DNA from: a virus
Lineage: Duplodnaviria; Caudoviricetes
Direction: 5' to 3' (one strand)
DNA length: 64,000 nt
Virus record (IMG/VR): IMGVR_UViG_2565956830_000008
Coordinates: 1-64,000 of that record
Positions 38,154 to 51,526 of this stretch are shown in pieces; positions within the stretch are counted from its first letter, which is position 1, and every line of letters starts with the position of its first letter. The notes under the pieces were generated by a model. The model had not been told where the DNA came from. It did not search any database and saw only the letters and a list, made by a program, of their open reading frames with translations. The position numbers were made by a program, and so were the translations under genes.

Positions 38154-39746
38154 CTACCGGCCGATACGGCGCCCGTACGGGGACGCCGGCCGGTTCGGCT
38201 GCACACTGCCCGGTATGCCGCTGCGGGCGCCGCCCTGGGGGGCCTGCGCGAGCGGGGCGTGGACGATGGCGCCCGCGTTGGCCTCCGGGATCAGCCCGTA
38301 CACGAGGACACAGGAGGCGTCGATCCGGCCCGGCGAATCGGGGTCCGTGGGCTGCCAGGTCGACCACTCGCGTTCCATGTCGGGGAACAGGCCACGGAAG
38401 CGGACCTTGTCCTGCACCATCTGCTGGGCGATCGGCTCCGCCCGCAGCAACTTCCCCTGCTTGGCCCGCACCGGCAGGATCGCCGGCATGAGGACGTTCT
38501 TGGGTATCTCCTCGTCCCGCTGGAGCTTCTCCCACGACGTCTGGATCGCCAACACACACATGTCCCGGCCGAAGTTCCACTCGACGTAGATGATCGACGC
38601 GTTCGTGCGGTACGCGAGCCGACAGGCGGCCATGGACCACTCGGCCGACGACATCGGCGCCGACACGTCGTCGGTGATCCACACGCGGCCGTCGTCGCCG
38701 AGGAAACCACCGATGACACCGGCAACGTCCCGGCCGCCACCCGACGGGTCGATCGACACGGCGATCTTCTGCGGCTCCACGGGCGTGGTGGTGTCACGCA
38801 GCAGGCGCAGCAGTTCCTCGGACACAAGCGCTCCTTCACCAGGCTGGGGGTCGCCCTGGTAGAGGGCGTGCCAGTCCCGGACGATCGACGTTGCCTTCTT
38901 CTGCGCCCACCACGCCTTCAACCTGGCGACGGCCCGGCTGGGGATCTTCGGGTGGGGCAGCGGCTCCCCGGGCTCGCGGCCGAGCGGGTCCTCGCCGAAC
39001 TTGGGGTCGGCGACCGCGGGGAGGTGGATCACCTTCCACCGGCCGCCGTCCTCGATGCGGCCCTCTTCCTGGATACGGCGCCCGGCGAAATCGTCGGGGT
39101 GCCAGCGGGTCTGGATCGCCACCACGGCGCTGCGGTCGGGCTGGAGGCGGGACAGGGCCGCCGAGCTGTACCAGTCGTGCAGGGCACGCCGTGCGGCCTC
39201 CGATTCGGCGTCGGCGCGGTCCTTGTGCGGGTCGTCGATGATCAGAAGGTTCACGTCGAAGCCGGTGAGGCCCTTGCCGACGGACACTGAGCGGCAGCCG
39301 CCGCCCGCGGTGACCTCCCAGTCCTGCATCGCCCCGGAGCCGGGCTTCATCCGCAGCTCCCACTCGTCGCCGTACTCCTCGACGTAGCCGCGGATCCTCT
39401 TGCCGCGCCGGAGCGCCAGGTCGTCGCCGTACGAGGTGACCGCGACCTTGTCCACGGGGAACGTGCACAGCCACCAGAACGGGAACCACTCCGCGACCGT
39501 CGTGCTCTTCCCGACCTGGGGCGGGGTCAGGATCAGCAGCCGGTCGTACTCGCCCCGCCCCACCTCGGCCAGCGCATCGCCGATGAGCTTCAGGTGCGGG
39601 CGCATCCGGAAGTTCCGGTCGAGGCCGCGGGCGAGCGTCACCGGATCCCGCAGCAGGTCAGCGCTCATCGCCCGGCGTGCCGCCTCCAGCTGCCGGTAGA
39701 CCTCCTCGTCATCCTGGTGTGCCAGCTCGTCCACGGCCGTCGTCAC
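38154..39746 (-). CDS. terL: Terminase large subunit
   Basis: Walker A PPQVGKS, Walker B LLIIDDP, QTRWH, nuclease SIDP and SPGRIDA motifs. Confidence 0.95.
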   Translation of the reverse strand: MTTAVDELAHQDDEEVYRQLEAARRAMSADLLRDPVTLARGLDRNFRMRPHLKLIGDALAEVGRGEYDRLLILTPPQVGKSTTVAEWFPFWWLCTFPVDKVAVTSYGDDLALRRGKRIRGYVEEYGDEWELRMKPGSGAMQDWEVTAGGGCRSVSVGKGLTGFDVNLLIIDDPHKDRADAESEAARRALHDWYSSAALSRLQPDRSAVVAIQTRWHPDDFAGRRIQEEGRIEDGGRWKVIHLPAVADPKFGEDPLGREPGEPLPHPKIPSRAVARLKAWWAQKKATSIVRDWHALYQGDPQPGEGALVSEELLRLLRDTTTPVEPQKIAVSIDPSGGGRDVAGVIGGFLGDDGRVWITDDVSAPMSSAEWSMAACRLAYRTNASIIYVEWNFGRDMCVLAIQTSWEKLQRDEEIPKNVLMPAILPVRAKQGKLLRAEPIAQQMVQDKVRFRGLFPDMEREWSTWQPTDPDSPGRIDASCVLVYGLIPEANAGAIVHAPLAQAPQGGARSGIPGSVQPNRPASPYGRRIGR

Positions 39747-39749
39747 GGG

Positions 39750-40346
39750 CTACGCCTCCTCGTCCTCGTCGTCGCTGCCGTCCACGGCCTTGATCCGCTG
39801 GTTCACCGACGCCGCCAGCTCACTCAGGCGGGCACGCCGCTGCTCCGGCGGCATCTGCGCGAACTCGGCGAACTGGTGCGCCAGCGCGTTGGTGCCCTCG
39901 CTGGTGACGGCGATCGTCTCCGTGGGGTCACCGAACAGGACACGCCGGTGCCGCATCGCGACGTCCATCAGCCGGATGAAGTCACCGGCCGACAACTCGG
40001 CCGCGTTCAACGTCGTCAGCCGCTGCGCCAGCTTGCCGATCGCTGCGCCGAGGATCTTCGCGTCGGTCTCTGCGGCCCTGCGGCGCTCCTCCAGCCACAT
40101 CGCCTCGTACTGCCGGTCCAGGTGCCGGTCGTAGGCCTCGACGCGCTCACGCCACCGGTACTGGGCGGCGAGGTTCCTCACGTGCCCGTACGCGAGTGTC
40201 AGCCTCCGTGCGGCTTCGGTCAGGGTGCGGGTCCTGCCGAGGTCCCTGTAGGTGGCGAACTGTCCGTGTTTGTGGGGGGTCTCGTTGGGCTGACGTTCCC
40301 ACGGGTCGAGTTCGGGGCTCAGGGTGATGGGTGGACGGGTGCTCAT
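39750..40346 (-). CDS. terS: Terminase small subunit
   Basis: ATG 40346; PWERQPNE...F..YRDLG..R...W.ER...YD pattern; immediately upstream of terL. Confidence 0.8.
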   Translation of the reverse strand: MSTRPPITLSPELDPWERQPNETPHKHGQFATYRDLGRTRTLTEAARRLTLAYGHVRNLAAQYRWRERVEAYDRHLDRQYEAMWLEERRRAAETDAKILGAAIGKLAQRLTTLNAAELSAGDFIRLMDVAMRHRRVLFGDPTETIAVTSEGTNALAHQFAEFAQMPPEQRRARLSELAASVNQRIKAVDGSDDEDEEA

Positions 40347-40558
40347 GTGGCCCGTTCCTCCCGTCGTGCGGTGCCTTCGTAGCGGTAGAGCCATAGGGGG
40401 CCGTCGTCTGCCGGGTTCACGTGACGCCGGTAGACGAGTCGGTAGCCGTCGGCGTTGCGGAGCTCGCAGGTGTGGGGCGGGTTCCAGGGGTCTGCGGGGA
40501 TGGCGAGGAGTTGCCCGTCGACGGGTCCGCCCGCGAACTGGATGCCGACGCTGCTCAT
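40343..40558 (-). CDS. Small hypothetical protein (FAGGPVDG)
   Basis: 71 aa, ATGA-coupled on both sides. Confidence 0.6.
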   Translation of the reverse strand: MSSVGIQFAGGPVDGQLLAIPADPWNPPHTCELRNADGYRLVYRRHVNPADDGPLWLYRYEGTARREERAT

Positions 40559-41484
40559 GACGGGTCGCTGGGGACGTGGTTGGGTCCGGAGAGGTATTCG
40601 CCGGCGAGGCGTTCGAGGAGCCGCCAGCCCTGCCCCTGCTCGATCTCGCCTCGGCCTTCTGCGGCTGCGATGGCCTTGTTGATCGTGACGGCCGCGGGTG
40701 CGGGCAGGGTGCGGGCGCCGAGGACGGTCTCGAGTCCGACGTGCCCGGAGTGGAGGTGGGTGCCGTCGGGTGCGGTGTAGCCCTCGGCGAGTTCGTCGAG
40801 GTGGCGCTCGACGATGGCGAGGATGGCGTGGAGGGCGGTGGCCACGTTGCCGACCTTGTGCGCGGCATGTGTCGAGGCGAGCGTGTCCAGGGTCTGCTCG
40901 TAGTCGGCGCGTGCGGCGAGCCAGGACTCGTTCTGCCCGAGGCGCGCCTGGTTGAAGGCTTCGCGGGCGGCTTCGAGCTCCATGGGCAGGAAGATCAGGC
41001 TCACGGTGGCGAAGTCGAGGTTCGCTTCGGAGAGGCCTTCGGGGCTGACCTCGGCGAGGAGCTGGAGCTGTGCGTCGTCGAGGCCGGAGTAGGCCCGCCA
41101 GTCGACGTCTTCGATCTGGTCGTACAGCTGCTGGAGGGTCGCCGGGTCGTCCTTGCCGGTGATGGCGTTGTGCGACAGCTGCCGGGCGATCAGCTGGTCC
41201 TTCTCCTGCGGGTCGTCGATGAGCAGGCAGGTGATCTCGTCGAGTCCGGCTTCCACGGCCGCGTCGCACCTGTGGTTGCCGGACACGATGAGCTCGGCGC
41301 CCTCCGGGTATTCGCCGGCCCCGTAGATGAGCGGGACGGAGGTGAGGCAGCCGTCGGCCTTGATGTTGGCAACGAGCCGGTCGTACTCCTCCTTGGTCTG
41401 GTAGTGCGCGTTGACGGCGAGGCGGGTGAGGGCGCGCGGGTCGCGCTGGACGAGGCGGGGCCGGATTCGACTGCTGGTGGTCAT
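40555..41484 (-). CDS. ParB/Srx N-terminal domain protein
   Basis: NAH...RLVANIKADG, IVSGNHR, SHNAITGKDD motifs; coupled to the upstream gene. Confidence 0.85.
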   Translation of the reverse strand: MTTSSRIRPRLVQRDPRALTRLAVNAHYQTKEEYDRLVANIKADGCLTSVPLIYGAGEYPEGAELIVSGNHRCDAAVEAGLDEITCLLIDDPQEKDQLIARQLSHNAITGKDDPATLQQLYDQIEDVDWRAYSGLDDAQLQLLAEVSPEGLSEANLDFATVSLIFLPMELEAAREAFNQARLGQNESWLAARADYEQTLDTLASTHAAHKVGNVATALHAILAIVERHLDELAEGYTAPDGTHLHSGHVGLETVLGARTLPAPAAVTINKAIAAAEGRGEIEQGQGWRLLERLAGEYLSGPNHVPSDPS

Positions 41485-42824
41485 CGCATGTCCTTGCCGT
41501 GCTTGGTCTTCCAGAGGGTGAGCGCTTCGATCAGGTCGTAGGCGCCGAGGGGACCGCCGTACTGGAGCTGGTAGCGGTGGATGCCGTCCGCGCCCGGCTC
41601 GGTCCGCTTCTGCAGCTTCACGCCGGGGATGCCCCGCCCGTACTTCGCGCTGTTGGGCCGGTCGGTGAACGCGGTGGTGGCCCAGCCGTCAATCCGCTTC
41701 GACAGCGAGCGTTGGACGAGGAGCTGCGCCTCCTTCGTGGAGGCGGCCATCACGATGAGCTTCGACAGGCGCCGGTAGCGGGTCCACGACACCGGGAAGT
41801 CCGACATCAGGTAGGCGGTGTTCGGGTCGAACTTGGGCGGCAGGTAGGCGAACGCGCCGATCAGCTTCCCGTCGACCGCCACCCCGCACGCGATCAACGG
41901 GCTGCCGGGCTTGATCGTCTTCGACATGAACTGGGAGCGGATCGCCGCGAACTGCCCGGCGTTGAGGACGTGCAGGCTCATGCGGTCGCCGAGGTCCTCG
42001 TTCTGCCCGATCTTCGGCATGGGGATCGGCTCGACGGGCTGCCGGGGGCCGACGATGCGGCGCGGCCCGGCCGCCGCGTACACGTAGATCGGCAGGCCGC
42101 GGTTCGCGGTCTGGACGACGCCGGCGAGCTTGTCCCGCAGCTCGGGGCGTTCGATGTGCAGGCCGAGGACCCAGTTGGGCCGGTCCTGGACCTGCTCGAT
42201 GATGCGTTCCTTGCCGTCCTCGGTGAGCTCGTCGAAGGCTGGCTCGGGCCAGTTGAACGCGGCGTCGATGGACGCGAACTGCGCCTGGTAGTCCTTCGCG
42301 TAGAACGGCGGGAACATCACCACGGGGGCGTCGGCGGGCACCTCCTGGTCGAGGTAGTCGCGGACGTCGCCGGCGAAGAACGAGCCCAGCTTCGTTTGCA
42401 GGCCGCGGAGCTTGCTGGCGGTCTTGTCGTGCATCCGCTCCCACTGGTCGCGGGTGGCGTCCATCATCCGCCGGTAGTAGGCGCCGTCCTTGCCGACGTA
42501 CTGGAGGAAGCGGGTGCCGAGCATGAGGGTGGCGAGGAGGTCGGTGCGGTCCTCCAGGTAGGGCTTGAGCCAGCCGAGGGACTCCTCGTACTCCTCGCGC
42601 AGGGTGTAGTTGAGGTCGTCCCCGGCGAGGTACCAGCCGAGGGCGCACGAGTACGCCTGGATGTCGTTGCCGTGGACGCGGCGGGAGTCGCCGAACCGGG
42701 CGTGCAGCACGCGTTCGATCGTGAAGTTTCCCGAGCAGCCGACGTAGATGTCTTCGCCGGGCCACGTCCCGGCGTGCTCGTAGATGATCGAACGGAGGGG
42801 CGCGGGTATCGAGCCGTGGAACAT
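41481..42824 (-). CDS. Adenine-MTase-fold plus GNAT/Mom-like protein, putative DNA modification enzyme
   Basis: ATG 42824 (MFHGSI) with AGGAG RBS, 447 aa; YVGCSGNF (motif I-like), GNDI, FPPFY (DPPY-like); C-terminal VAVDGKLIGAF...YLMSDF...RLSKL. Confidence 0.65.
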   Translation of the reverse strand: MFHGSIPAPLRSIIYEHAGTWPGEDIYVGCSGNFTIERVLHARFGDSRRVHGNDIQAYSCALGWYLAGDDLNYTLREEYEESLGWLKPYLEDRTDLLATLMLGTRFLQYVGKDGAYYRRMMDATRDQWERMHDKTASKLRGLQTKLGSFFAGDVRDYLDQEVPADAPVVMFPPFYAKDYQAQFASIDAAFNWPEPAFDELTEDGKERIIEQVQDRPNWVLGLHIERPELRDKLAGVVQTANRGLPIYVYAAAGPRRIVGPRQPVEPIPMPKIGQNEDLGDRMSLHVLNAGQFAAIRSQFMSKTIKPGSPLIACGVAVDGKLIGAFAYLPPKFDPNTAYLMSDFPVSWTRYRRLSKLIVMAASTKEAQLLVQRSLSKRIDGWATTAFTDRPNSAKYGRGIPGVKLQKRTEPGADGIHRYQLQYGGPLGAYDLIEALTLWKTKHGKDMR

Positions 42825-42907: not shown

Positions 42908-42936
42908 GGCCCTCCCCGGGGACTGCGGGGAGGGCC
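42908..42936 (-). terminator. Hairpin just 3' of the tRNA
   Basis: GGCCCTCCCCG/CGGGGAGGGCC inverted repeat, weak U-tract. Confidence 0.5.
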
Positions 42937-42943
42937 AATCGTG

Positions 42944-43018
42944 TGGAGCGCCGGCCAGGGCTTGCACCTGGATCGCCCGACTGGAAGTCGGGCCGTGTTG
43001 CCTTACACGCACCAGCGC
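42944..43018 (-). tRNA. tRNA-Gly(UCC), atypical T-loop
   Basis: 75-nt cloverleaf GCGCTGG TG CGTG TAAGGCAA CACG G CCCGA CTTCCAG TCGGG CGAT CCAGG TGCAAGC CCTGG CCGGCGC T CCA; U73 and encoded CCA. Confidence 0.92.
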
Positions 43019-43060
43019 GGGTGGCGGTCGCGCCGCTGCTCGAACGACCGGCCGATCGGG

Positions 43061-43089
43061 ATCTTACCTCAGCTCCACCGGGTGCGCAG
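43061..43089 (-). promoter_or_regulatory. Putative promoter for the tRNA/modification operon
   Basis: TAAGAT -10 with CTGCGC 17 bp upstream. Confidence 0.45.
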
Positions 43090-43156: not shown

Positions 43157-44098
43157 TCAGCCCTGCCAGCAGGCGACGGCTTCGACCCGCGAGGACCGCT
43201 CGGCCTCCGCGATGATCTCGGCCATGGACAGGTCGTTGCGGAAGCGGTGCCCGATCTTCTCCTCGATGCGGGCCAGGCGGGCGGCGGGCTCCGGGTTGAG
43301 CTGAGCCGACAGCACGAGCGCCGACTTGGACGCGAGGACGCAGAACATGCAGGACAACCTTGGCATTCCGGCGAGGTATGCCGGGTGTTTGCGCAGGCCG
43401 GACGCTTCGACGGCCGCCCACACGTCGACGGTCGACCAGGTGTGCACCGGATACCAGACGTCGACGTGGCGGAGGGTGTTCGAGGCGCCCCAGCCGGGGC
43501 CGACGCCCTTCGGCACGGGCTGCTTGCGCGCCTTGTACTTCTCGGCCTTGGCCCGACGCGGTACGCACGCATCGCAGGGACATGTCCAGGCGCCTTCGTG
43601 GGTGAAGGCGAGCAGTTTGCGGCGGGCCGGGGACTCCTCGGCGCGTATGCCCATGACGTTGAGGATGCGGACGCGGCCGGTGTGCCCCGCCTCTCGTGAC
43701 TCTTGGACGAGGCGGGTCATCAGGGTCCGCACCGGGCCGCGCTTGAAGTCCGATGTGCACCAGCGGTTGTCGGCGTCGGGGAACATGCCCCGCTCTTCGA
43801 TCCGGTCGATGAGGTCGCCGCCCGTGCGGGCGACGACTTCGAACCGCAGCCCGTAGTAGGCGGCGTGCTCGGCGGCCAGCTCCTTCGTGCCTTCCCACTC
43901 GGCGGAACCGAGGTCGGCGTGCACGCACACGATGCGGTCGAGGACGTCGGCGTCGCGCGCGGCCCAGAACAGCTCGTAGAGCATCGCGATCGAGTCCTTG
44001 CCGCCCGAGATGTTCGCGATGATCCAGTCGTACGAGGCGAGGTCGGGGAGGTCCGACCCGAAGCCGGGCAGGTCGAATGCCAACTGCGCCGTAGACAT
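43157..44098 (-). CDS. PAPS-reductase-family PP-loop protein
   Basis: SGGKDS, RWCTSDFK, GIRAEES..R, HPAY, RLSCMFC motifs. Confidence 0.88.
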   Translation of the reverse strand: MSTAQLAFDLPGFGSDLPDLASYDWIIANISGGKDSIAMLYELFWAARDADVLDRIVCVHADLGSAEWEGTKELAAEHAAYYGLRFEVVARTGGDLIDRIEERGMFPDADNRWCTSDFKRGPVRTLMTRLVQESREAGHTGRVRILNVMGIRAEESPARRKLLAFTHEGAWTCPCDACVPRRAKAEKYKARKQPVPKGVGPGWGASNTLRHVDVWYPVHTWSTVDVWAAVEASGLRKHPAYLAGMPRLSCMFCVLASKSALVLSAQLNPEPAARLARIEEKIGHRFRNDLSMAEIIAEAERSSRVEAVACWQG

Positions 44099-45732: not shown

Positions 45733-45822
45733 GAACTACTTCCATTCTTTCCGAAACAGCTTGCCCTAGCCAGTTAGGGCAAGCTGTTTCAGTAAAAGGA
45801 CTTCTAAGAAAACCGCAGGTCA
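45733..45822 (-). repeat. Early ~90-bp hairpin repeat A
   Basis: TGACCTGCGG...GAAACAGCTTGCCCTA-ACTGGC-TAGGGCAAGCTGTTTC...AAAGAATGGAAGTAGTTC. Confidence 0.9.
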
Positions 45823-46716
45823 GGCGGTCATTTCCGTGAGGAAGGCCAGGGCTGCGTTCAGGTCGCGCGCGCCCTCCACCGCGATGTCGGGGAACTTGGC
45901 GGCCTGGGCGAGCTGCGCTTCGGCGACGATGAACTTGAGGTCGCCGGCGTCGATGGCGGCCTGCATGAGGCCGTCGAAGTCGTTGACCGGCAAGACTCGT
46001 CCGTCGAGGCCGAGTTGGCCGATCATGACCACGCCTCTGACGGAGCCCGCGGGGACGTGACCAGATGCGGCGAGCGCTGTACAGGCGAGGGCGAGGTCGG
46101 CGGCGGAGCCGCCGCGAGCCGCGGTCCAGCAGGCGGTGACGGTCATGTCGCCGAGCGGCCACTGGATGCCGCTGTTGACGATGGCCGCGCGAATCCTGTC
46201 GCGGGTCTCAAGGGCGTACTTCGGGTTCGGGCCGGTGATCCTCATGGCGTGCACTCCCGGCGTGAACTCGGCCTGCACCTTGGCCGGGCCTTCCTGGGTG
46301 GGGAAGTAGCTGCTCGCGGTCTTCGGCGGGGTTTTCGGCAGGCGGATCGTGCGGAGGGGCCGGCCCTGCGGGGCTGCCTTCCAGCCTGCCGCTCCGGCCA
46401 GGTTGCCGAAGGGGATCACGTCGCCGAGGGTGCCCTTGACCTCGTCCGTGATGCTGTCGGGCAGGCCATGACCCGCGGCGGTCGGGGCGTGCCACAGCAC
46501 CTTGCCCTTGGCGTCCGCCACCTCGTGCAGCTCCACCTCGCCAGTGTCGAAGGTGAGCGTTGCGGCTTCGGGCAGGTGCGTGCGGACCAGGTGGGCGACG
46601 TACGCGACCGCGCGTGAGTAGAGGGTGCGTCGGGCGACGCTGGCGGCCTGGTAGGCGTCCTCGAAGGCCTTGGAGTGAACGGCGGTTTCGAGGTCGGTGT
46701 GCAGGGTGTCGGCCAT
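45820..46716 (-). CDS. Protein with C-terminal ComM/YifB (Mg-chelatase-like) N-terminal domain
   Basis: ETRDRIRAAIVNSG, GSAADLALA and GQLGLDGRVLPV motifs; no ATPase domain. Confidence 0.75.
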   Translation of the reverse strand: MADTLHTDLETAVHSKAFEDAYQAASVARRTLYSRAVAYVAHLVRTHLPEAATLTFDTGEVELHEVADAKGKVLWHAPTAAGHGLPDSITDEVKGTLGDVIPFGNLAGAAGWKAAPQGRPLRTIRLPKTPPKTASSYFPTQEGPAKVQAEFTPGVHAMRITGPNPKYALETRDRIRAAIVNSGIQWPLGDMTVTACWTAARGGSAADLALACTALAASGHVPAGSVRGVVMIGQLGLDGRVLPVNDFDGLMQAAIDAGDLKFIVAEAQLAQAAKFPDIAVEGARDLNAALAFLTEMTA

Positions 46717-47183: not shown

Positions 47184-47272
47184 GATCTACATTCATTCTT
47201 CCAAAATGAGCTTGCCCTAACCAGTTTTGTGAACCCTATTCGGCAAAAGAACTTCTAAGAAGCCGCAGGTCA
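47184..47272 (-). repeat. Early hairpin repeat B (degenerate stem)
   Basis: Same layout as A; its TGA is the C5-MTase stop codon. Confidence 0.85.
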
Positions 47273-48994
47273 GGCGGCCAGCTCGTATCGGCTGATCGGC
47301 TCGCCCGTGATGGCTTCGACCAGCGCGCAGTACAGGACCTCAGCCACGGCCGGGGTCACCGCGTTGCCGAGCTGGCGGACCTGGTGCCGCTTCGAGCCCA
47401 TGAGCTTGTACTTCGCCCTGAAGGCCATCGCCCTCGCGATCTCGTGGGGCTGGAGCATCCTGAACAGCACGTCGTCGATCTTGAAGTCGCGGCGGACCAG
47501 TGCGTACCGGTCGCGGGTGGGGAGCGCGCCGATCGGGTCGGTGACCGGCCGGGCCTGGCCGTTGCCGTAGTACGGGACGAGCAGGTGGTCAGGCTGGGTC
47601 ACGAGCCCGTGATGGTTGCCGCCGGCCGTGACCGAGTGAAGCGGCATGCCGAGGTGCCGCGCCTTCTCCTTGTCGCCGCCGCCCCGCATGGGGATCACGA
47701 ACGGCAGGTAGGCGAGGGCGGTCTCCAGGCGGGCCGTCTGGGTGCGCAGCGGGTCCTCCAGCCGCATGGGCTTCTTGCCGTCGCGGCCCTCGCACGGAAT
47801 CAACAGCGGCGGGAACACGATGCCGTCGGTCTCCACGGTCGTCCGGGTGGGCATCGGCAGGTCCAGGCCGATGGCCTTCTCCCGCCAGGTCCCGCCGGCC
47901 GGGACGAGGAGCGGGCCGCCCGGCATCCCCTGGGGTGCCTCGTCGACGTCGCCAAAGAGCGAGCCCTGCCCGTCGTCGAAGAAGTCCTCACCCCAGCCCC
48001 AATACTTGGCGCCTCCGGCCCGCACGCGGGCGATCGTGGCGGGGGCGAGGCCCTCGGGGCAGTCGTCGGTCTTGGACCGGTCGCCGATCGGCGTTCCCGC
48101 GATCGAGAAGTCGATGGCGGCCGCGGCGGGGAGCACGTAGGGCTCGACGATCGCGCGGCAGCCCGAGCGCGGGCAACGGAAGTCGTAGCTCTGCCGGTAG
48201 CGACCCATGTCCCGCTTCGGGTCGCGGAAGACCTGGACGGCGCGCACCTGTTCGTCGCAGTCGGCGCACCAGGCGTCGGGGCGCAGGACCCACTTGTCGA
48301 AGTCGGGGTCGCGGCCGAGGCTCTCGTGCCAGTACACGAAGTACAGGCGGTCACGGCTTTGCGGTACACGGTCCAGGGTGCGCGGGACGACGTGCATCGA
48401 GTTGATCGCGAGGAGCTTCGTCCGGTACCCAAGCTTGTGGAACTCGCCGACCCACCGATCCCATTGGTCCCAGCCCCGGCAGTCTGTGACGTTCTCGACG
48501 ACTCCGGCCAGGACCAAGCCGCCGCGGTTGATCACGCCCCGCAAATACATGGGGACTTCTTCCATGAGGGCGCGGCTGCGCTCCTCGGCGGCCCGGCGTT
48601 CCTTGTCGCTCTTGAACTCCGGCTCTTCGAAGTCGAAATCGCCCTGCATCGTGCGGTCGAAGTCGACCTTCACGCCCCGGGCCGCCGACCACTTCGGGCA
48701 CTCCGGCGACGCCCAGAAGAGCTGGCAGACCGGCCACTTCTCGACCGGGGCCCGGCGGATGTCGCCCTTCCACAGGTCGCAGTTCGGGTTGTTCCACGCG
48801 TGCGTGGCGAGTGCGACGTCCCAGTGGTTCGCGCCTCTGGTGGTCAGCACGCCGGGGACCGCGTCCGCTCCCTGCGTGTCGCCGCCAGCACCGCAGAACC
48901 AGCTCATGGCGGTCAGCACGCTGCCGTCGTGCTTGTAGGCGCGGGCCGGACTGGCGGATGCCCAGGCGCGCGTGGTGGCGTCGATGTAGGGCAT
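47270..48994 (-). CDS. DNA cytosine-C5 methyltransferase
   Basis: FCGAGG, SPEC, ENV, QSRDR and QLGNAV motifs; Cys-rich insertion. Confidence 0.92.
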   Translation of the reverse strand: MPYIDATTRAWASASPARAYKHDGSVLTAMSWFCGAGGDTQGADAVPGVLTTRGANHWDVALATHAWNNPNCDLWKGDIRRAPVEKWPVCQLFWASPECPKWSAARGVKVDFDRTMQGDFDFEEPEFKSDKERRAAEERSRALMEEVPMYLRGVINRGGLVLAGVVENVTDCRGWDQWDRWVGEFHKLGYRTKLLAINSMHVVPRTLDRVPQSRDRLYFVYWHESLGRDPDFDKWVLRPDAWCADCDEQVRAVQVFRDPKRDMGRYRQSYDFRCPRSGCRAIVEPYVLPAAAAIDFSIAGTPIGDRSKTDDCPEGLAPATIARVRAGGAKYWGWGEDFFDDGQGSLFGDVDEAPQGMPGGPLLVPAGGTWREKAIGLDLPMPTRTTVETDGIVFPPLLIPCEGRDGKKPMRLEDPLRTQTARLETALAYLPFVIPMRGGGDKEKARHLGMPLHSVTAGGNHHGLVTQPDHLLVPYYGNGQARPVTDPIGALPTRDRYALVRRDFKIDDVLFRMLQPHEIARAMAFRAKYKLMGSKRHQVRQLGNAVTPAVAEVLYCALVEAITGEPISRYELAA

Positions 48995-50612: not shown

Positions 50613-50701
50613 GGCGCTCCTCTCATTCTTTCCGAATCAGCTCAACCTAGCCAGTTTTGATAACCTGATTAGGCAAAGAAGGGCAAAAGAAGCACTGGTC
50701 A
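50613..50701 (-). repeat. Early hairpin repeat C (diverged)
   Basis: Conserved AAAACTGGCTAGG loop and AATCAG/CTGATT stem; its TGA is the MTase stop. Confidence 0.8.
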
Positions 50702-51526
50702 GGTGAGGGCGAACAGGTCGAGCTGCCGGGGCTGCCGCTGCCACCAGCCGTGGGTGGGGAGCGGCCCGCCGGACTCGGCGTCGACGACCAGGAGGACCGT
50801 GCGCACGCTCGTTCCGGACGGCGCGAACGACTCGTCGGGCAGCGGGGCGAACGTGCCCTCGGCGAGGGCGATCAGCTCGCGGAACTCGACCGTGGCGCGG
50901 TCGCTGTGCCACATCACCGACTCGGGCAGGACCGCGACGAGCGTGCCGCCGTCGTCGAGGAAGCCCATCGCGTGCTTCACGTGCTGCACGGCCGCCGCGA
51001 ACGGCGGGTTCATCAGCACCCGGCGGTAGCCATGGGGGCAGTCGAGCGGGTCCAGGTCGAGAAAGTCCGCCTCGACCACGCGACGGGCGGCGCCCTGCTC
51101 ACGGAGGACGCGGACCCGCCGCTCGTCGATCTCGACGCAGTCGACGACCCCGCCGCACTCGACGGCCGGCCCCACGATCGAGCCGGTACCAGCCGACGGC
51201 TCCAGGACGCTCATGCCCTCGCGGACGCCCGCGTGCGCCAGCATGTCGTCGACCACGCGCGGCGGTGTCGGGTACCAGCCCTGTTCGAGCCGGCTGGGGA
51301 ACTCGCGGGTGGCGAGGCACGCCCGCATGTACTCCTCCACCGGGAACGGGAAGACGTGGGCGCGCACCGCTTTGCGGCCGTCCCACCGTCCGCCGATCTC
51401 CTTCAGGATCTTGTTCACCTGCTCGTACGTGGGGCGGTCCAGGTCGAACGGGATCTGCACCCGGTCGTCGGCGATGACCGTACGGGCGTCGGTGAGGACG
51501 TCGTAGACGCCGCTTGGGATCTCCAT
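50699..51526 (-). CDS. DNA amino (N6-adenine-type) methyltransferase
   Basis: YPTP, VLEPSAGTG, MNPPF, SFAPSGT.VRT motifs; C-terminal QLDLF. Confidence 0.88.
   Translation of the reverse strand: MEIPSGVYDVLTDARTVIADDRVQIPFDLDRPTYEQVNKILKEIGGRWDGRKAVRAHVFPFPVEEYMRACLATREFPSRLEQGWYPTPPRVVDDMLAHAGVREGMSVLEPSAGTGSIVGPAVECGGVVDCVEIDERRVRVLREQGAARRVVEADFLDLDPLDCPHGYRRVLMNPPFAAAVQHVKHAMGFLDDGGTLVAVLPESVMWHSDRATVEFRELIALAEGTFAPLPDESFAPSGTSVRTVLLVVDAESGGPLPTHGWWQRQPRQLDLFALT

What the first reader, a model, noticed from the sequence alone, without database searches (positions are those of the whole stretch)
42944..43018. tRNA-Gly with hallmarks of a non-proteinogenic tRNA
Seen: GlyRS identity elements are intact (G1-C72, C2-G71, G3-C70, U73, C35, C36, CCA), but the T-arm reads GTGCAAG rather than GTTCRA, the 51-63 pair is A-U, and the D-loop starts with U rather than A. 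Known: staphylococcal cell-wall tRNA-Gly species have altered T-loops and A51-U63, which weakens EF-Tu binding. Inference: it is charged with glycine but diverted from ribosomes. GGA codons look uncommon in this GC-rich phage, so codon supply is a weak explanation.
Basis: partly seen in the sequence, partly recalled or inferred. Interest (0 to 1): 0.72.

Follow-up and report, generated by a model that had tools for sequence, protein, structure and literature searches.

The report
Phage glycine tRNA-like partner RNA
A prophage carries an odd glycine tRNA that, in most related phages examined, sits directly in front of the same unusual two-domain enzyme gene, so it probably hands glycine to that enzyme and does not serve ribosomes.

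Summary
A tRNA-Gly(UCC) lies at 42944-43018 on the minus strand, with G55, A51-U63 and U14 as described.

The decisive evidence is its context. It sits 119 nt upstream of a 447-aa gene with Pfam DAM-like-phage1 and GNAT-phage-like domains, followed by a ParB-like gene.

I picked loci by the protein alone. 89 of 99 sources had one tRNA-Gly-like RNA upstream on the same strand, including Mycobacterium and Gordonia phages and Bacillota MAGs.

- **Invariant positions:** 12 of 75 columns, nine of them glycyl-tRNA synthetase identity positions (G1-C72, C2-G71, G3-C70, U73, C35, C36).
- **Decoding positions drift:** position 34 is U, C, A or G; U33 is lost in 22 of 78 and U8 in 26 of 78.
- **G55 is lineage-specific:** 17 of 78.
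- **EF-Tu binding:** T-stems predict about 1.5-2 kcal/mol weaker binding than the host's own tRNA-Gly.
- **Codon supply:** GGA is not enriched.

Best reading (0.55): a dedicated non-ribosomal glycyl carrier for the adjacent enzyme, perhaps for Mom-like DNA adenine modification. No charging, EF-Tu or enzyme assay exists. My literature searches found no description.

The parts
42944..43018 (-). tRNA-Gly(UCC)-like RNA gene with encoded CCA (core 42947-43018). It has G55, A51-U63, U14 and a possible C32-G38 pair.
   Evidence: ARAGORN. Rfam RF00005 at 43.1 bits. Family model R1 at 70.6 bits. Sequence read.
43023..43053 (-). Leader hairpin directly 5' of the tRNA-like RNA. Its role is unknown.
   Evidence: RNAfold of the 48 nt upstream. 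A hairpin at the same place appears in nearly all 84 distinct upstream regions, with clade-specific arm sequences that change in step as judged by eye. Only the two copies in this genome are shown here to share the whole unit.
43061..43066 (-). -10-like box (TAAGAT), about 48 nt upstream of the RNA's first base. Putative promoter.
   Evidence: Seen by eye. A TAnnnT-type box stands at the same distance in the orphan copies and in close relatives. The simple sigma-70 scan does NOT support it (0 sites).
42908..42936 (-). GC-rich hairpin 7 nt after the CCA. Putative terminator without a U tail.
   Evidence: Sequence. Partial hairpin matches. Analogous hairpins follow the RNA in relatives. The terminator scan, which requires a T run, does not call it.
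41481..42824 (-). 447-aa protein with an N-terminal Dam-like methyltransferase-fold domain and a C-terminal GNAT-fold domain. Proposed user of the RNA.
   Evidence: Pfam PF22555 at E 5.5e-106 and PF22559 at E 4.7e-57. phrog_7858, function unknown. AlphaFold2 models at pLDDT 88.2 and 94.2. Foldseek gives a GNAT fold and a methyltransferase hit. 393 homologues.
40555..41484 (-). ParB-like N-terminal-domain protein (309 aa). Its ATG overlaps the stop codon of the upstream gene by 4 nt.
   Evidence: phrog_7405 at E 3.2e-61 plus ParB-like PHROGs. Pfam ParB_N is only weak, E 0.24. It follows the enzyme gene in 93 of 96 loci.
39753..40400 (-). Small terminase subunit (context).
   Evidence: phrog_6299 at E 2.4e-22.
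38154..39746 (-). Large terminase subunit (context; shows the region is a prophage).
   Evidence: Pfam Terminase_6N at E 1.9e-06.
43157..44098 (-). PAPS-reductase / PP-loop-like protein upstream of the RNA. Not a constant part of the module.
   Evidence: Pfam PAPS_reduct at E 9.1e-08. phrog_424. Weak DndC-like match. A relative is present in only 16 of 96 loci.

Best explanation
The RNA is a phage-encoded tRNA-Gly-like molecule whose job is not decoding.

**Proposed mechanism.**
1. It is transcribed as its own small unit: a -10-like box, a leader hairpin, the cloverleaf and a hairpin terminator.
2. The host glycyl-tRNA synthetase charges it with glycine, because it keeps the full bacterial glycine identity set.
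3. EF-Tu binds it poorly.
4. It serves as the private glycyl donor of the enzyme encoded immediately downstream.

That enzyme has a GNAT-fold transferase domain fused to a Dam-like adenine-methylase-fold domain. It probably works with the ParB-like protein that follows it. The most likely target is adenine in phage DNA, a Mom-like anti-restriction hypermodification.

**Shown here:**
- the RNA's structure;
- its tight genetic linkage to the enzyme;
- which positions are conserved and which drift.

**Inferred, not shown:**
- glycylation;
- escape from EF-Tu and the ribosome;
- donor use by the GNAT domain;
- DNA adenine as the target.
For: **1. Linkage, tested without bias.** Loci were chosen by the protein, not the RNA.
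- A covariance model found exactly one tRNA-like RNA, upstream and on the gene's strand, in 89 of 99 sources.
- The breakdown is 72 of 80 genome contigs, 12 of 13 viral contigs, 3 of 3 isolated-phage records, 1 of 2 relatives' genomes, and the window.
- ARAGORN alone called a tRNA with a glycine anticodon within 400 nt upstream in 61 of 80 genome contigs and in 9 of 13 viral contigs.
- Linkage holds down to 35-43% protein identity. Mycobacterium phage Jeon has an annotated tRNA-Gly(tcc) abutting the homologue. Gordonia phages Jollymon and Clawz have an unannotated tRNA-like RNA. 5 of 10 non-actinobacterial MAG loci also carry the RNA.

**2. Conservation pattern.** In 61 sequences 12 columns are invariant. 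Nine are G1, C2, G3, C70, G71, C72, U73, C35 and C36, and three are the T-arm core G53, C56 and C61. The nine include the bacterial glycine identity set described in PMC9976931 (passages): U73, G1-C72, C2-G71, C35 and C36.

**3. Decoding and fold positions are relaxed.** In 78 distinct members:
- position 34 is U 53, C 16, A 8, G 1;
- U33 is lost in 22;
- U8 is replaced by A in 26;
- position 55 is U 58, G 17, A 2, C 1.

Near-identical sequences differ only in the wobble base, UCC, CCC or ACC. Some members have 5- or 6-nt loops that ARAGORN cannot call.

**4. EF-Tu prediction.** I applied the additive T-stem table of PMC3239215.
- The window RNA is predicted at -9.2 kcal/mol and the family median is -9.2 (75 of 78 scorable).
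- The host's canonical tRNA-Gly species are at -10.7 to -11.2.
- The paper gives a bacterial Gly-UCC mean of -10.8 and -9.5 for the staphylococcal cell-wall species.
- G51-C63 occurs in 0 of 61 and G49-U65 in 1 of 61.

**5. Codon supply fails.** GGA is 5.9% of glycine codons in the prophage genes against 6.8% in the host. The host keeps an intact canonical tRNA-Gly(UCC).

**6. The enzyme.**
- The GNAT fold is confirmed.
- No conserved glycine lies in the beta4-alpha3 segment, where acetyl-CoA GNATs carry their pyrophosphate-binding motif. That motif is recalled from memory.
- The Dam-like domain has an invariant FPPF (34 of 34) where N6-methylases have (D/N/S)PP(Y/F). That canonical motif is also recalled.

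**7. Precedents.**
- Phage Mu Mom, a GNAT-fold enzyme, transfers glycine from Gly-tRNA-Gly to N6 of adenine in dsDNA for restriction evasion (PMC13219725, abstract and passages).
- ParB homologues activate phage DNA-modifying enzymes (PMC13229309, abstract and passages).
Against: - No experiment exists and no RNA-seq holder was found, so expression, processing and charging are unproven.
- The GNAT domain's nearest solved folds are ordinary acetyl-CoA N-acetyltransferases such as RimI and Naa50/60, with TM about 0.55. None of the roughly 49 top listed hits is FemX, TacT, Mom or L/F-transferase.
- Profile comparison with Mom gives probability 0.2%. The Mom analogy therefore rests on fold class and context only.
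- 10 of 99 enzyme loci have no tRNA-like RNA, even with filters off. The RNA is therefore dispensable, or host tRNA-Gly can substitute. Mom works with all E. coli isoacceptors.
- The window's own copy keeps U33, U8, G18 G19, A37 and a 7-nt loop and could decode.
- A pairable 32-38 is not diagnostic. 21 of 90 predicted host tRNAs have one, including tRNA-Pro(GGG) with C32-G38.
- Orphan copies of a sister type occur in 13 of 24 same-genus genomes without the enzyme, which is found in only 2 of 24. The RNA family can therefore act, or persist, without this enzyme.
- The EF-Tu numbers come from E. coli and T. thermophilus measurements and an additive model.
- Many loci are close kin, so the counts overstate independence.
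Confidence: 0.55

Rival explanations
1. The RNA is the enzyme's target or regulator, not its glycine donor. The GNAT domain might acetylate the glycyl-RNA or host Gly-tRNA-Gly, as TacT-type toxins do. The Dam-like domain might methylate the RNA. The RNA might act as a decoy, antitoxin or guide that controls the enzyme.
For: - The nearest solved folds of the GNAT domain are acetyl-CoA N-acetyltransferases.
- TacT acetylates Gly-tRNA-Gly and reads U73 and G71 (PMC9976931 passage; PMC9241777 abstract in listing). Both positions are invariant here.
- The Dam-like domain keeps a glycine-rich loop and an acidic residue that suggest a nucleotide pocket (G29, G32, D54 invariant).
- Orphan RNA copies exist without the enzyme, as a decoy or antidote might.
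Against: - No conserved glycine lies in the beta4-alpha3 segment, where acetyl-CoA GNATs bind pyrophosphate (motif recalled).
- A toxin/antidote pair does not explain the constant ParB-like partner (93 of 96) or the Dam-like DNA-enzyme fold.
- Conservation of C35 and C36 points to charging by GlyRS, which a mere decoy of the acceptor end would not need.
Confidence: 0.2
2. It is an ordinary decoding tRNA kept by the phage for one of three reasons: to supply GGA/GGG decoding, to replace a host tRNA-Gly destroyed by integration (tRNA-dependent lysogeny), or to back up host tRNA-Gly attacked by a defence nuclease or toxSAS.
For: - The window copy has a 7-nt loop with U33, a UCC anticodon, A37, U8, G18 G19 and CCA.
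- Phage tRNAs are often divergent.
- tRNA-dependent lysogeny and tRNA-targeting defences are documented (PMC10865867 passages; PMC11559606 abstract in listing).
- A pairable 32-38 occurs in genuine host tRNAs.
Against: - GGA is no commoner in the prophage than in the host.
- The host's canonical tRNA-Gly(UCC) is intact on another contig, and no integrase is linked to the RNA.
- In relatives the wobble base flips among U, C, A and G in near-identical backbones. U33 is lost in 22 of 78 and U8 in 26 of 78, and loops of 5 or 6 nt occur.
- The T stems predict EF-Tu binding 1.5-2 kcal/mol weaker than host tRNA-Gly.
- A decoding role does not explain strict adjacency to one enzyme gene across phyla.
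Confidence: 0.1
3. It is a cis-acting tRNA-like processing or stability element for the downstream mRNA. RNase P or RNase Z cuts would define the 5' end of the enzyme's transcript, with no need for aminoacylation.
For: - In several lineages the RNA ends only 25-38 nt before the start codon with no intervening hairpin, so co-transcription is likely there.
- A structured leader precedes it everywhere.
Against: - A pure processing signal need not keep C35, C36 and U73 invariant over 61 sequences from several phyla.
- In the window and its close relatives a strong hairpin separates the RNA from the gene.
- Orphan copies stand alone, with their own box and hairpin, between unrelated genes.
Confidence: 0.08
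4. It is a remnant or component of an attachment site (attP/attL/attR) left by integration into a host tRNA-Gly gene.
For: Many actinophages integrate into tRNA genes, including tRNA-Gly (PMC10865867 Table 2 passage).
Against: - The gene is full length.
- It lies in mid-prophage between modification genes and the terminase genes.
- It differs from the host tRNA-Gly(UCC) throughout.
- It is conserved at the same place in free phage genomes.
Confidence: 0.02

Closest known systems
Non-proteogenic tRNA-Gly (NP1-NP3) of Staphylococcus aureus and S. epidermidis
   Same: - Extra UCC-anticodon glycine tRNAs that keep GlyRS identity.
- UGC or UGU in place of UUC in the T loop.
- A51-U63 and a T stem that binds EF-Tu weakly.
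- A sixth pair in the anticodon stem.
- Use as glycyl donors outside the ribosome (PMC7826273 passages; PMC3239215).

The window RNA shares UGC, A51-U63, a pairable 32-38 and an even weaker predicted EF-Tu value (-9.2 against -9.5).
   Different: - Unrelated lineage. The paper states the NP cluster is found only in staphylococci.
- Phage-borne rather than chromosomal.
- G18 G19 are kept in the window copy. The NP species carry a dihydrouridine at position 19.
- Only one of the three weak T-stem pairs is the same.
- G55 is not a family-wide trait here (17 of 78).
- The linked enzyme is a Dam-like+GNAT fusion, not a Fem transferase, and nothing ties it to peptidoglycan.
Phage Mu Mom (Pfam PF25680), which makes N6-carbamoylmethyl-adenine from Gly-tRNA-Gly
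   Same: A phage GNAT-fold enzyme that takes glycine from charged tRNA-Gly, places it on N6 of adenine in dsDNA and so evades restriction (PMC13219725). Here a GNAT-fold domain is fused to an adenine-methylase-fold domain and is genetically tied to a tRNA-Gly-like RNA.
   Different: - No detectable sequence relationship: hhalign probability 0.2%, and a different Pfam family.
- Mom has no Dam-like domain, no ParB-like partner and no tRNA gene of its own. It uses any host isoacceptor.
- Activity of the present enzyme is untested.
ParB-dependent phage thymine dioxygenases (5mYOX with ParB)
   Same: A phage DNA-modifying enzyme encoded next to a ParB homologue that it needs as an activator (PMC13229309). 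Here a ParB-like gene follows the enzyme gene in 93 of 96 loci, and in the window the two genes overlap by 4 nt.
   Different: Different enzyme class and chemistry. No RNA component is reported there ('tRNA' occurs 0 times in that text).
GNAT toxins TacT and AtaT2, which acetylate Gly-tRNA-Gly
   Same: GNAT-fold proteins that recognise tRNA-Gly through U73 and G71 (PMC9976931 passage).
   Different: They use acetyl-CoA, are paired with protein antitoxins and block translation. They have no Dam-like domain, no ParB-like partner and no dedicated RNA gene.
Phage-encoded decoding tRNAs (codon supply, tRNA-dependent lysogeny, escape from tRNA-targeting defences)
   Same: A tRNA gene inside an actinophage genome (PMC10865867).
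   Different: Those tRNAs must decode. This family lets the wobble base, U33 and U8 drift, and it is fixed to one enzyme gene rather than to an integrase or a tRNA cluster.

Membership tests
tRNA (Rfam RF00005) | Cloverleaf of four helices, supported by sequence and covariation | tested here: met
   43.1 bits against a gathering score of 29. Across 61 relatives 96.3% of cells are paired and 16 of 22 pairs change on both sides.
tRNA (Rfam RF00005) | Universal tertiary-fold nucleotides of elongator tRNAs: U8, A14, G18 G19, U54 U55 C56, U33 (list recalled) | tested here: not met
   The window copy has U14 and G55 and keeps U8, G18 G19 and U33. In the family U8 is lost in 26 of 78, U33 in 22 of 78 and U55 in 20 of 78.
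Bacterial tRNA-Gly as a GlyRS substrate | Identity set U73, G1-C72, C2-G71, C35, C36 (with G3-C70), as listed in PMC9976931 | tested here: met
   All are present in the window copy and invariant in 61 of 61 aligned relatives. In the 78 distinct members G3 and C70 are each 77 of 78 and the others 78 of 78. The identity set is taken from passages read.
Bacterial tRNA-Gly as a GlyRS substrate | Actually charged with glycine | not testable with these tools
   No RNA run was listed. This needs an acid-gel or periodate assay.
Staphylococcal non-proteogenic tRNA-Gly | UGC or UGU in place of UUC in the T loop | tested here: met
   The window copy has U54 G55 C56. Only 17 of 78 family members share this. 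The feature is taken from PMC7826273.
Staphylococcal non-proteogenic tRNA-Gly | Weak EF-Tu T stem (A49-U65, U50-A64, A51-U63; about -9.5 kcal/mol) | tested here: inconclusive
   Only A51-U63 is shared; the window has C49-G65 and C50-G64. The additive model gives -9.2, which is weaker than -9.5. This is a prediction only.
Staphylococcal non-proteogenic tRNA-Gly | Belongs to the staphylococcal NP lineage and is preferred by Fem transferases | tested here: not met
   It is an actinophage RNA with no Fem gene adjacent. The neighbours are a Dam-like+GNAT gene and a ParB-like gene. The paper states the lineage is restricted to staphylococci. Enzyme preference is not testable here.
Mom family (PF25680) | Sequence membership in the Mom family | tested here: not met
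   The protein matches PF22555 and PF22559 only. Mu Mom matches PF25680. hhalign between the two gives probability 0.2%.
Mom family (PF25680) | GNAT fold | tested here: met
   Foldseek shows GNAT acetyltransferases at E 7.6e-06 to 2e-04 with TM about 0.5-0.6, on a model with pLDDT 94.2.
Mom family (PF25680) | Uses Gly-tRNA-Gly to modify N6 of adenine in dsDNA | not testable with these tools
   There is only genetic linkage to a tRNA-Gly-like RNA and a fused adenine-methylase-fold domain.
N6-adenine DNA methyltransferase (Dam-like) | Catalytic motif IV (D/N/S)-P-P-(Y/F/W) (recalled) | tested here: not met
   F171 P172 P173 F174 are invariant in 34 of 34 aligned homologues. The first residue is Phe.
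N6-adenine DNA methyltransferase (Dam-like) | Methyltransferase fold with a glycine-rich nucleotide loop | tested here: met
   PF22555 at E 5.5e-106. G29, G32 and D54 are invariant. Foldseek hits methyltransferase 7m6b over 276 columns.

The most novel reading that the evidence does not exclude
A self-contained, RNA-dependent DNA-hypermodification module of phages.
- The phage brings its own non-decoding glycine-acceptor RNA, made of a leader hairpin plus a cloverleaf.
- The host GlyRS charges that RNA.
- A Dam-like domain presents a DNA adenine, and the fused GNAT domain glycylates it, with a ParB-like activator.
- The result is a Mom-like anti-restriction mark made by an enzyme family unrelated in sequence to Mom.
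- The nearly identical orphan copies scattered in Streptomyces chromosomes would then be host- or element-borne players in the same conflict, either decoys that soak up the phage enzyme or donors for another transferase.
Probability: 0.33. Interest if true: 0.9.

Novelty: new variant of a known kind. Interest (0 to 1): 0.8.

Why it matters
According to the paper read here (PMC7826273), dedicated non-ribosomal tRNAs taking part in peptidoglycan synthesis had so far been detected only in S. aureus and S. epidermidis. Among the papers I found, tRNA-dependent DNA modification is described only for Mom, which borrows host tRNA.

If this reading holds, viruses encode a private aminoacyl-carrier RNA for an enzyme. 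That would be a second, independent origin of "non-proteogenic" tRNA-Gly, and probably a second family of tRNA-dependent DNA-modifying enzymes.

It would also:
- give a function to PF22555/PF22559 proteins, which sources name "putative antirestriction adenine methyltransferase";
- explain a lone tRNA-Gly annotated in some actinophage genomes, and RNAs left unannotated in others;
- offer a natural case for studying how a tRNA is kept charged while being withdrawn from EF-Tu and the ribosome.

The hypothesis is directly testable in cultivable phage-host pairs, namely Mycobacterium smegmatis and Gordonia phages.

Tried and rejected
**Searches that found nothing**
- BLASTN of the 75-nt RNA against 50,697 phage records gave no match. 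The RNA is too short and divergent, so protein-guided loci were used instead.
- The whole-window Rfam gathering search gave 0 matches. A local search was needed.
- No Rfam family other than tRNA covers the leader plus RNA in 4 orphan loci. Only 1 of the 4 even passed the filters as tRNA.
- The consensus promoter/terminator scan found 0 sites. My promoter and terminator calls therefore rest on inspection and conservation only.
- The look-up of sequencing runs listed no RNA holder. All DNA shares were 0.15 or less.

**Ideas tested and dropped**
- Sequence search of the enzyme against PDB chains gave only chance-level hits, E 0.05 or worse.
- The fold searches did not bring up FemX, TacT, Mom or L/F-transferase among the listed hits. 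hhalign against Mom was negative.
- I first took the conserved 32-38 pair as a mark of a non-decoding loop. I withdrew this after finding pairable 32-38 in 21 of 90 predicted host tRNAs.
- A 27-nt hairpin upstream of the gene in L126 looked like an acceptor minihelix. It is a hairpin followed by a T run, so it is a terminator.
- The PAPS-reductase-like gene is not part of the module (16 of 96 loci).
- Neighbours of the orphan copies share no family. The largest count was 2 of 64 proteins for any Pfam family.

**Literature**
- The phrase "antirestriction adenine methyltransferase" returned 0 papers.
- PF22559, PF22555 and the two Pfam names returned 0 papers.
- ParB + GNAT + Mom + DNA modification + bacteriophage + Dam returned 0 papers.
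- Two further combinations returned nothing relevant.
- The library lacks most subscription journals, and supplements were closed. A description of this module, or tables of Mom homologues in the supplements of PMC13219725, may exist unseen.
Full report
**1. The observation.**

ARAGORN finds a single tRNA in the window: tRNA-Gly(UCC) at 42944-43018 on the minus strand. The Rfam tRNA model scores it 43.1 bits against a gathering score of 29 in a local search. The whole-window gathering search had returned nothing.

Read on the minus strand, the RNA has these features:
- a 7-bp acceptor stem with G1-C72, C2-G71, G3-C70 and a U5-G68 wobble;
- U8, then a 4-bp D stem followed by U14, and G18 G19;
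- a 5-bp anticodon stem and a 7-nt loop with C32, U33, U34 C35 C36, A37 and G38;
- a 4-nt variable loop;
- a T stem with C49-G65, C50-G64 and A51-U63;
- a T loop reading U54 G55 C56 A57 A58;
- U73 and an encoded CCA.

**2. The genome and the setting.**

The window is part of contig C119 of an 11.76-Mb genome of about 70% G+C. I take it to be a Streptomyces-type actinomycete for two reasons. An SsgA-family protein lies near the second copy. The closest homologues of the window's proteins are from Streptomyces.

The window is a prophage read almost entirely on the minus strand. It carries a large terminase (38154-39746), a small terminase, a C5 methylase and other modification-type genes.

Genome-wide, ARAGORN predicts 91 tRNAs. 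Among them are:
- an intact canonical tRNA-Gly(UCC) on C102;
- three GCC copies and one CCC copy;
- a second odd UCC copy on C156, which shares G55, A51-U63, C32/G38 and U73 with the window copy. The stems differ between the two copies while pairing is kept; the anticodon-stem and 49-65 changes are fully compensatory, and the changes at 4-69 and 5-68 are one-sided C/U switches opposite G.

**3. Codon supply.**

GGA makes up 79 of 1338 glycine codons (5.9%) in 46 window genes. In 1508 long host ORFs it makes up 6.8%. The gene next to the RNA uses GGA once in 39 glycine codons. Codon supply does not explain the tRNA.

**4. The neighbour.**

The gene that starts 119 nt downstream of the RNA (42824-41481) encodes a 447-aa protein. 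It has Pfam DAM-like-phage1 (E 5.5e-106) and GNAT-phage-like (E 4.7e-57) domains, and PHROGs gives it no function.

A ParB-like protein gene (phrog_7405) follows. Its start codon overlaps the enzyme's stop codon by 4 nt. The small and large terminase genes come next.

Sources name the protein "putative antirestriction adenine methyltransferase". 393 homologues reached E 1e-5 or better among 8000 scored candidates, and some carry Hint/intein inserts.

**5. Test of linkage.**

I chose loci by the protein only, from four sources:

| Source | Loci | Protein identity |
|---|---|---|
| IMG/VR viral contigs | 13 | 58-96% |
| Species-representative genome contigs | 80 | 35-94% |
| Isolated-phage records (3 of 15 fetched) | 3 | 43-54% |
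| Relatives' genomes | 2 | not given |

ARAGORN called a tRNA with a glycine anticodon, on the gene's strand and within 400 nt upstream, in 61 of 80 genome contigs. It also called one in 9 of 13 viral contigs.

I then built a covariance model from 61 of these RNAs. It found exactly one match per positive source, always upstream on the gene's strand, in 89 of 99 sources:
- 72 of 80 genome contigs;
- 12 of 13 viral contigs;
- 3 of 3 phage records;
- 1 of 2 relatives' genomes;
- the window itself.

The ten negatives stayed negative with filters off. One apparent minihelix among them is a terminator.

The model is only a detector of tRNA-like RNAs. In the host genome it also scores canonical tRNAs, for example tRNA-Gly(CCC) at 64.4 bits. 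Membership therefore rests on position and features, not on score.

The linkage reaches distant relatives:
- Mycobacterium phage Jeon, where gene 67 is annotated tRNA-Gly(tcc) and abuts the homologue;
- Gordonia phages Jollymon and Clawz, where the RNA is not annotated;
- 5 of 10 loci from Bacillota, Chloroflexi, Synergistaceae and Myxococcales MAGs.

The ParB-like gene follows the enzyme gene in 93 of 96 loci. A PAPS-reductase-like gene is present in only 16 of 96. Many loci are close kin, so these counts are not independent events. The pairing nevertheless spans several clades with quite different RNA sequences.

**6. What is conserved in the RNA.**

In a MAFFT alignment of 61 sequences 12 columns are invariant:
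- nine are G1, C2, G3, C35, C36, C70, G71, C72 and U73;
- three are G53, C56 and C61 of the T-arm core.

The nine include the bacterial glycine identity set, as described in the passages I read of PMC9976931.

The cloverleaf is kept by compensation:
- 96.3% of cells are paired, against 37-43% with slid partners;
- 16 of 22 pairs change on both sides;
- 0 of 500 shuffles reach the observed values.

Positions that matter for decoding and for the canonical tertiary fold drift. In the 78 distinct sequences of the 89 matches:
- position 34 is U 53, C 16, A 8, G 1;
- position 33 is U in only 56;
- position 8 is A in 26;
- position 55 is U 58, G 17, A 2, C 1.

Near-identical sequences differ only in the wobble base. 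Some members have 5- or 6-nt loops. The Gordonia phage RNAs have a non-canonical T loop, and one has lost UCC. The family trait is "glycine identity kept, decoding features free".

One correction to my own first reading. The 32-38 pair is conserved with covariation (CG 45, GC 9, UG 3, GU 1, UA 1, other 2). However, pairable 32-38 also occurs in 21 of 90 predicted host tRNAs, including tRNA-Pro(GGG). It is therefore not diagnostic.

**7. EF-Tu.**

I used the averaged single-pair values of Table 2 in PMC3239215. The predictions are:

| RNA | Predicted binding (kcal/mol) |
|---|---|
| Window RNA | -9.2 |
| Family median (75 of 78 scorable) | -9.2 |
| Orphan copy | -9.6 |
| Host tRNA-Gly(GCC) | -10.7 |
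| Host tRNA-Gly(UCC) and (CCC) | -11.2 |
| Bacterial Gly-UCC mean (from the paper) | -10.8 |
| Staphylococcal cell-wall species (from the paper) | -9.5 |

None of the 61 sequences has G51-C63, and only one has G49-U65. All three host isoacceptors have G49-U65, and two of them also have G51-C63; the GCC species has C51-G63.

These are predictions from an additive model measured with E. coli and T. thermophilus EF-Tu.

**8. The enzyme.**

AlphaFold2 models have pLDDT 88.2 for the full length and 94.2 for the C-terminal 173 residues.
- Foldseek places the C-terminal domain among GNAT acetyltransferases such as RimI and Naa50/60, with E down to 7.6e-06 and TM about 0.55.
- It matches the N-terminal domain to a methyltransferase, 7m6b, over 276 columns.
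- None of the listed hits is a tRNA-using GNAT.
- A profile comparison with Mu Mom is negative, at probability 0.2%. The protein is not a Mom-family member.

Two sequence features fit a non-standard role:
- Motif IV of the Dam-like domain is an invariant FPPF in 34 of 34 homologues. N6-methylases have (D/N/S)PP(Y/F) at that place; that motif is recalled.
- No glycine is conserved between beta4 and alpha3 of the GNAT domain. Acetyl-CoA GNATs carry their pyrophosphate-binding motif there; that motif is also recalled.

**9. Interpretation.**

The simplest account of a tRNA-like RNA that keeps only its glycine identity, is predicted to bind EF-Tu weakly, and is fixed in front of a GNAT-fold enzyme across phyla is this: it is that enzyme's glycyl donor.

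Two precedents make DNA adenine the most attractive target:
- Mom uses Gly-tRNA-Gly to modify N6 of adenine in dsDNA for restriction evasion (PMC13219725).
- ParB homologues activate phage DNA-modifying enzymes (PMC13229309).

This last step is inference.

Rivals that keep real weight:
- the RNA is the enzyme's substrate, decoy or regulator (the GNAT fold is closest to acetyl-CoA enzymes, and TacT reads U73 and G71);
- the RNA decodes after all (the window copy alone could);
- the RNA is a processing element.

An attachment-site origin is very unlikely.

**10. Things left open.**

*Orphan copies.* Copies of a sister type occur in 13 of 24 same-genus genomes, at 1-5 copies and 93-97% identity. 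They occur in 0 of 16 genomes of other genera of the order.
- Each has its own -10-like box, leader hairpin and terminator hairpin.
- They lie between ordinary chromosomal genes with no shared neighbour.
- They do not co-occur with the enzyme, which is found in 2 of those 24 genomes.
- A similar RNA does precede the enzyme gene on a Streptomyces plasmid record (L097).

*Leader hairpin.* A hairpin directly 5' of the RNA is seen in nearly all 84 distinct upstream regions. Its sequence differs by clade and its role is unknown.

*Enzyme loci without the RNA.* Ten enzyme loci lack the RNA.

**11. Novelty.**

Searches of the held library found no paper naming this protein family, its Pfam entries or this gene combination. 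The staphylococcal paper states that non-proteogenic tRNAs taking part in peptidoglycan synthesis had so far been detected only in S. aureus and S. epidermidis.

The library omits most subscription journals, and supplements were closed, so prior description cannot be excluded. I rate this a new variant of known kinds (non-proteogenic tRNA-Gly and tRNA-dependent modification). It has a strong, testable hypothesis and no experimental support yet.

Noticed in passing
G000:C156:77231-77301 (= L009:10001-10071; L011:1501-1571) and loci L012-L037: Orphan sister copies of the odd tRNA-Gly(UCC), with G55, A51-U63, U37 and C32/G38. They occur in 13 of 24 same-genus genomes at 1-5 copies each, including three within 3 kb in one genome, and are 93-97% identical. 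Each has its own -10-like box, leader hairpin and terminator. They lie between unrelated chromosomal genes and do not co-occur with the Dam-like+GNAT enzyme.
   Followed up: partly
window 43023-43053 (minus strand), and the 48 nt upstream of the RNA in L038-L136: A hairpin lies directly 5' of the tRNA-like RNA in nearly all relatives, including Bacillota MAGs. The arm sequences differ between clades. Whether it stays on the mature RNA is unknown.
   Followed up: partly
L054:3321-3391 (Gordonia phage Jollymon) and L055:3323-3393 (Gordonia phage Clawz): An unannotated tRNA-like RNA (model scores 46.9 and 48.0 bits) lies between genes 28 and 29 of these deposited phage genomes. The T loop is non-canonical, and in Jollymon the anticodon loop no longer reads UCC.
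   Followed up: partly
proteins P0012, P0020, P0021, P0026, P0041; loci L101 and L119: Some homologues of the Dam-like+GNAT protein are about 700 aa long and carry a Hint/intein insert. In those loci the tRNA-like RNA lies correspondingly further upstream of the matched segment.
   Followed up: no
window 41481-41484: The ParB-like gene's ATG overlaps the Dam-like+GNAT gene's stop codon by 4 nt, which suggests translational coupling.
   Followed up: no
window 43157-44098, 45820-46716, 47270-48994, 50699-51526 (all minus strand): The prophage's early region is rich in nucleic-acid-modification-type genes: a PAPS-reductase/PP-loop (weakly DndC-like) gene, a ChlI-domain protein, a long C5 cytosine methylase and a further methyltransferase-like protein.
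   Followed up: partly
window, whole: The Rfam gathering-threshold search of the whole 64-kb window returned no tRNA. A 401-nt local search scored the same RNA 14 bits above the gathering score. This looks like a speed-filter loss on an atypical, GC-rich tRNA.
   Followed up: yes
L045:2199-2269 and L045:3800-3900: In one viral contig an intact tRNA-like RNA lies 1.7 kb upstream of the enzyme gene, while a decayed remnant of a second copy sits at the usual place.
   Followed up: no
G000:C198:19043-19138: ARAGORN labels a 96-nt stretch as tRNA-Gly(tcc). It lacks a tRNA-like acceptor end and is probably a false call.
   Followed up: no
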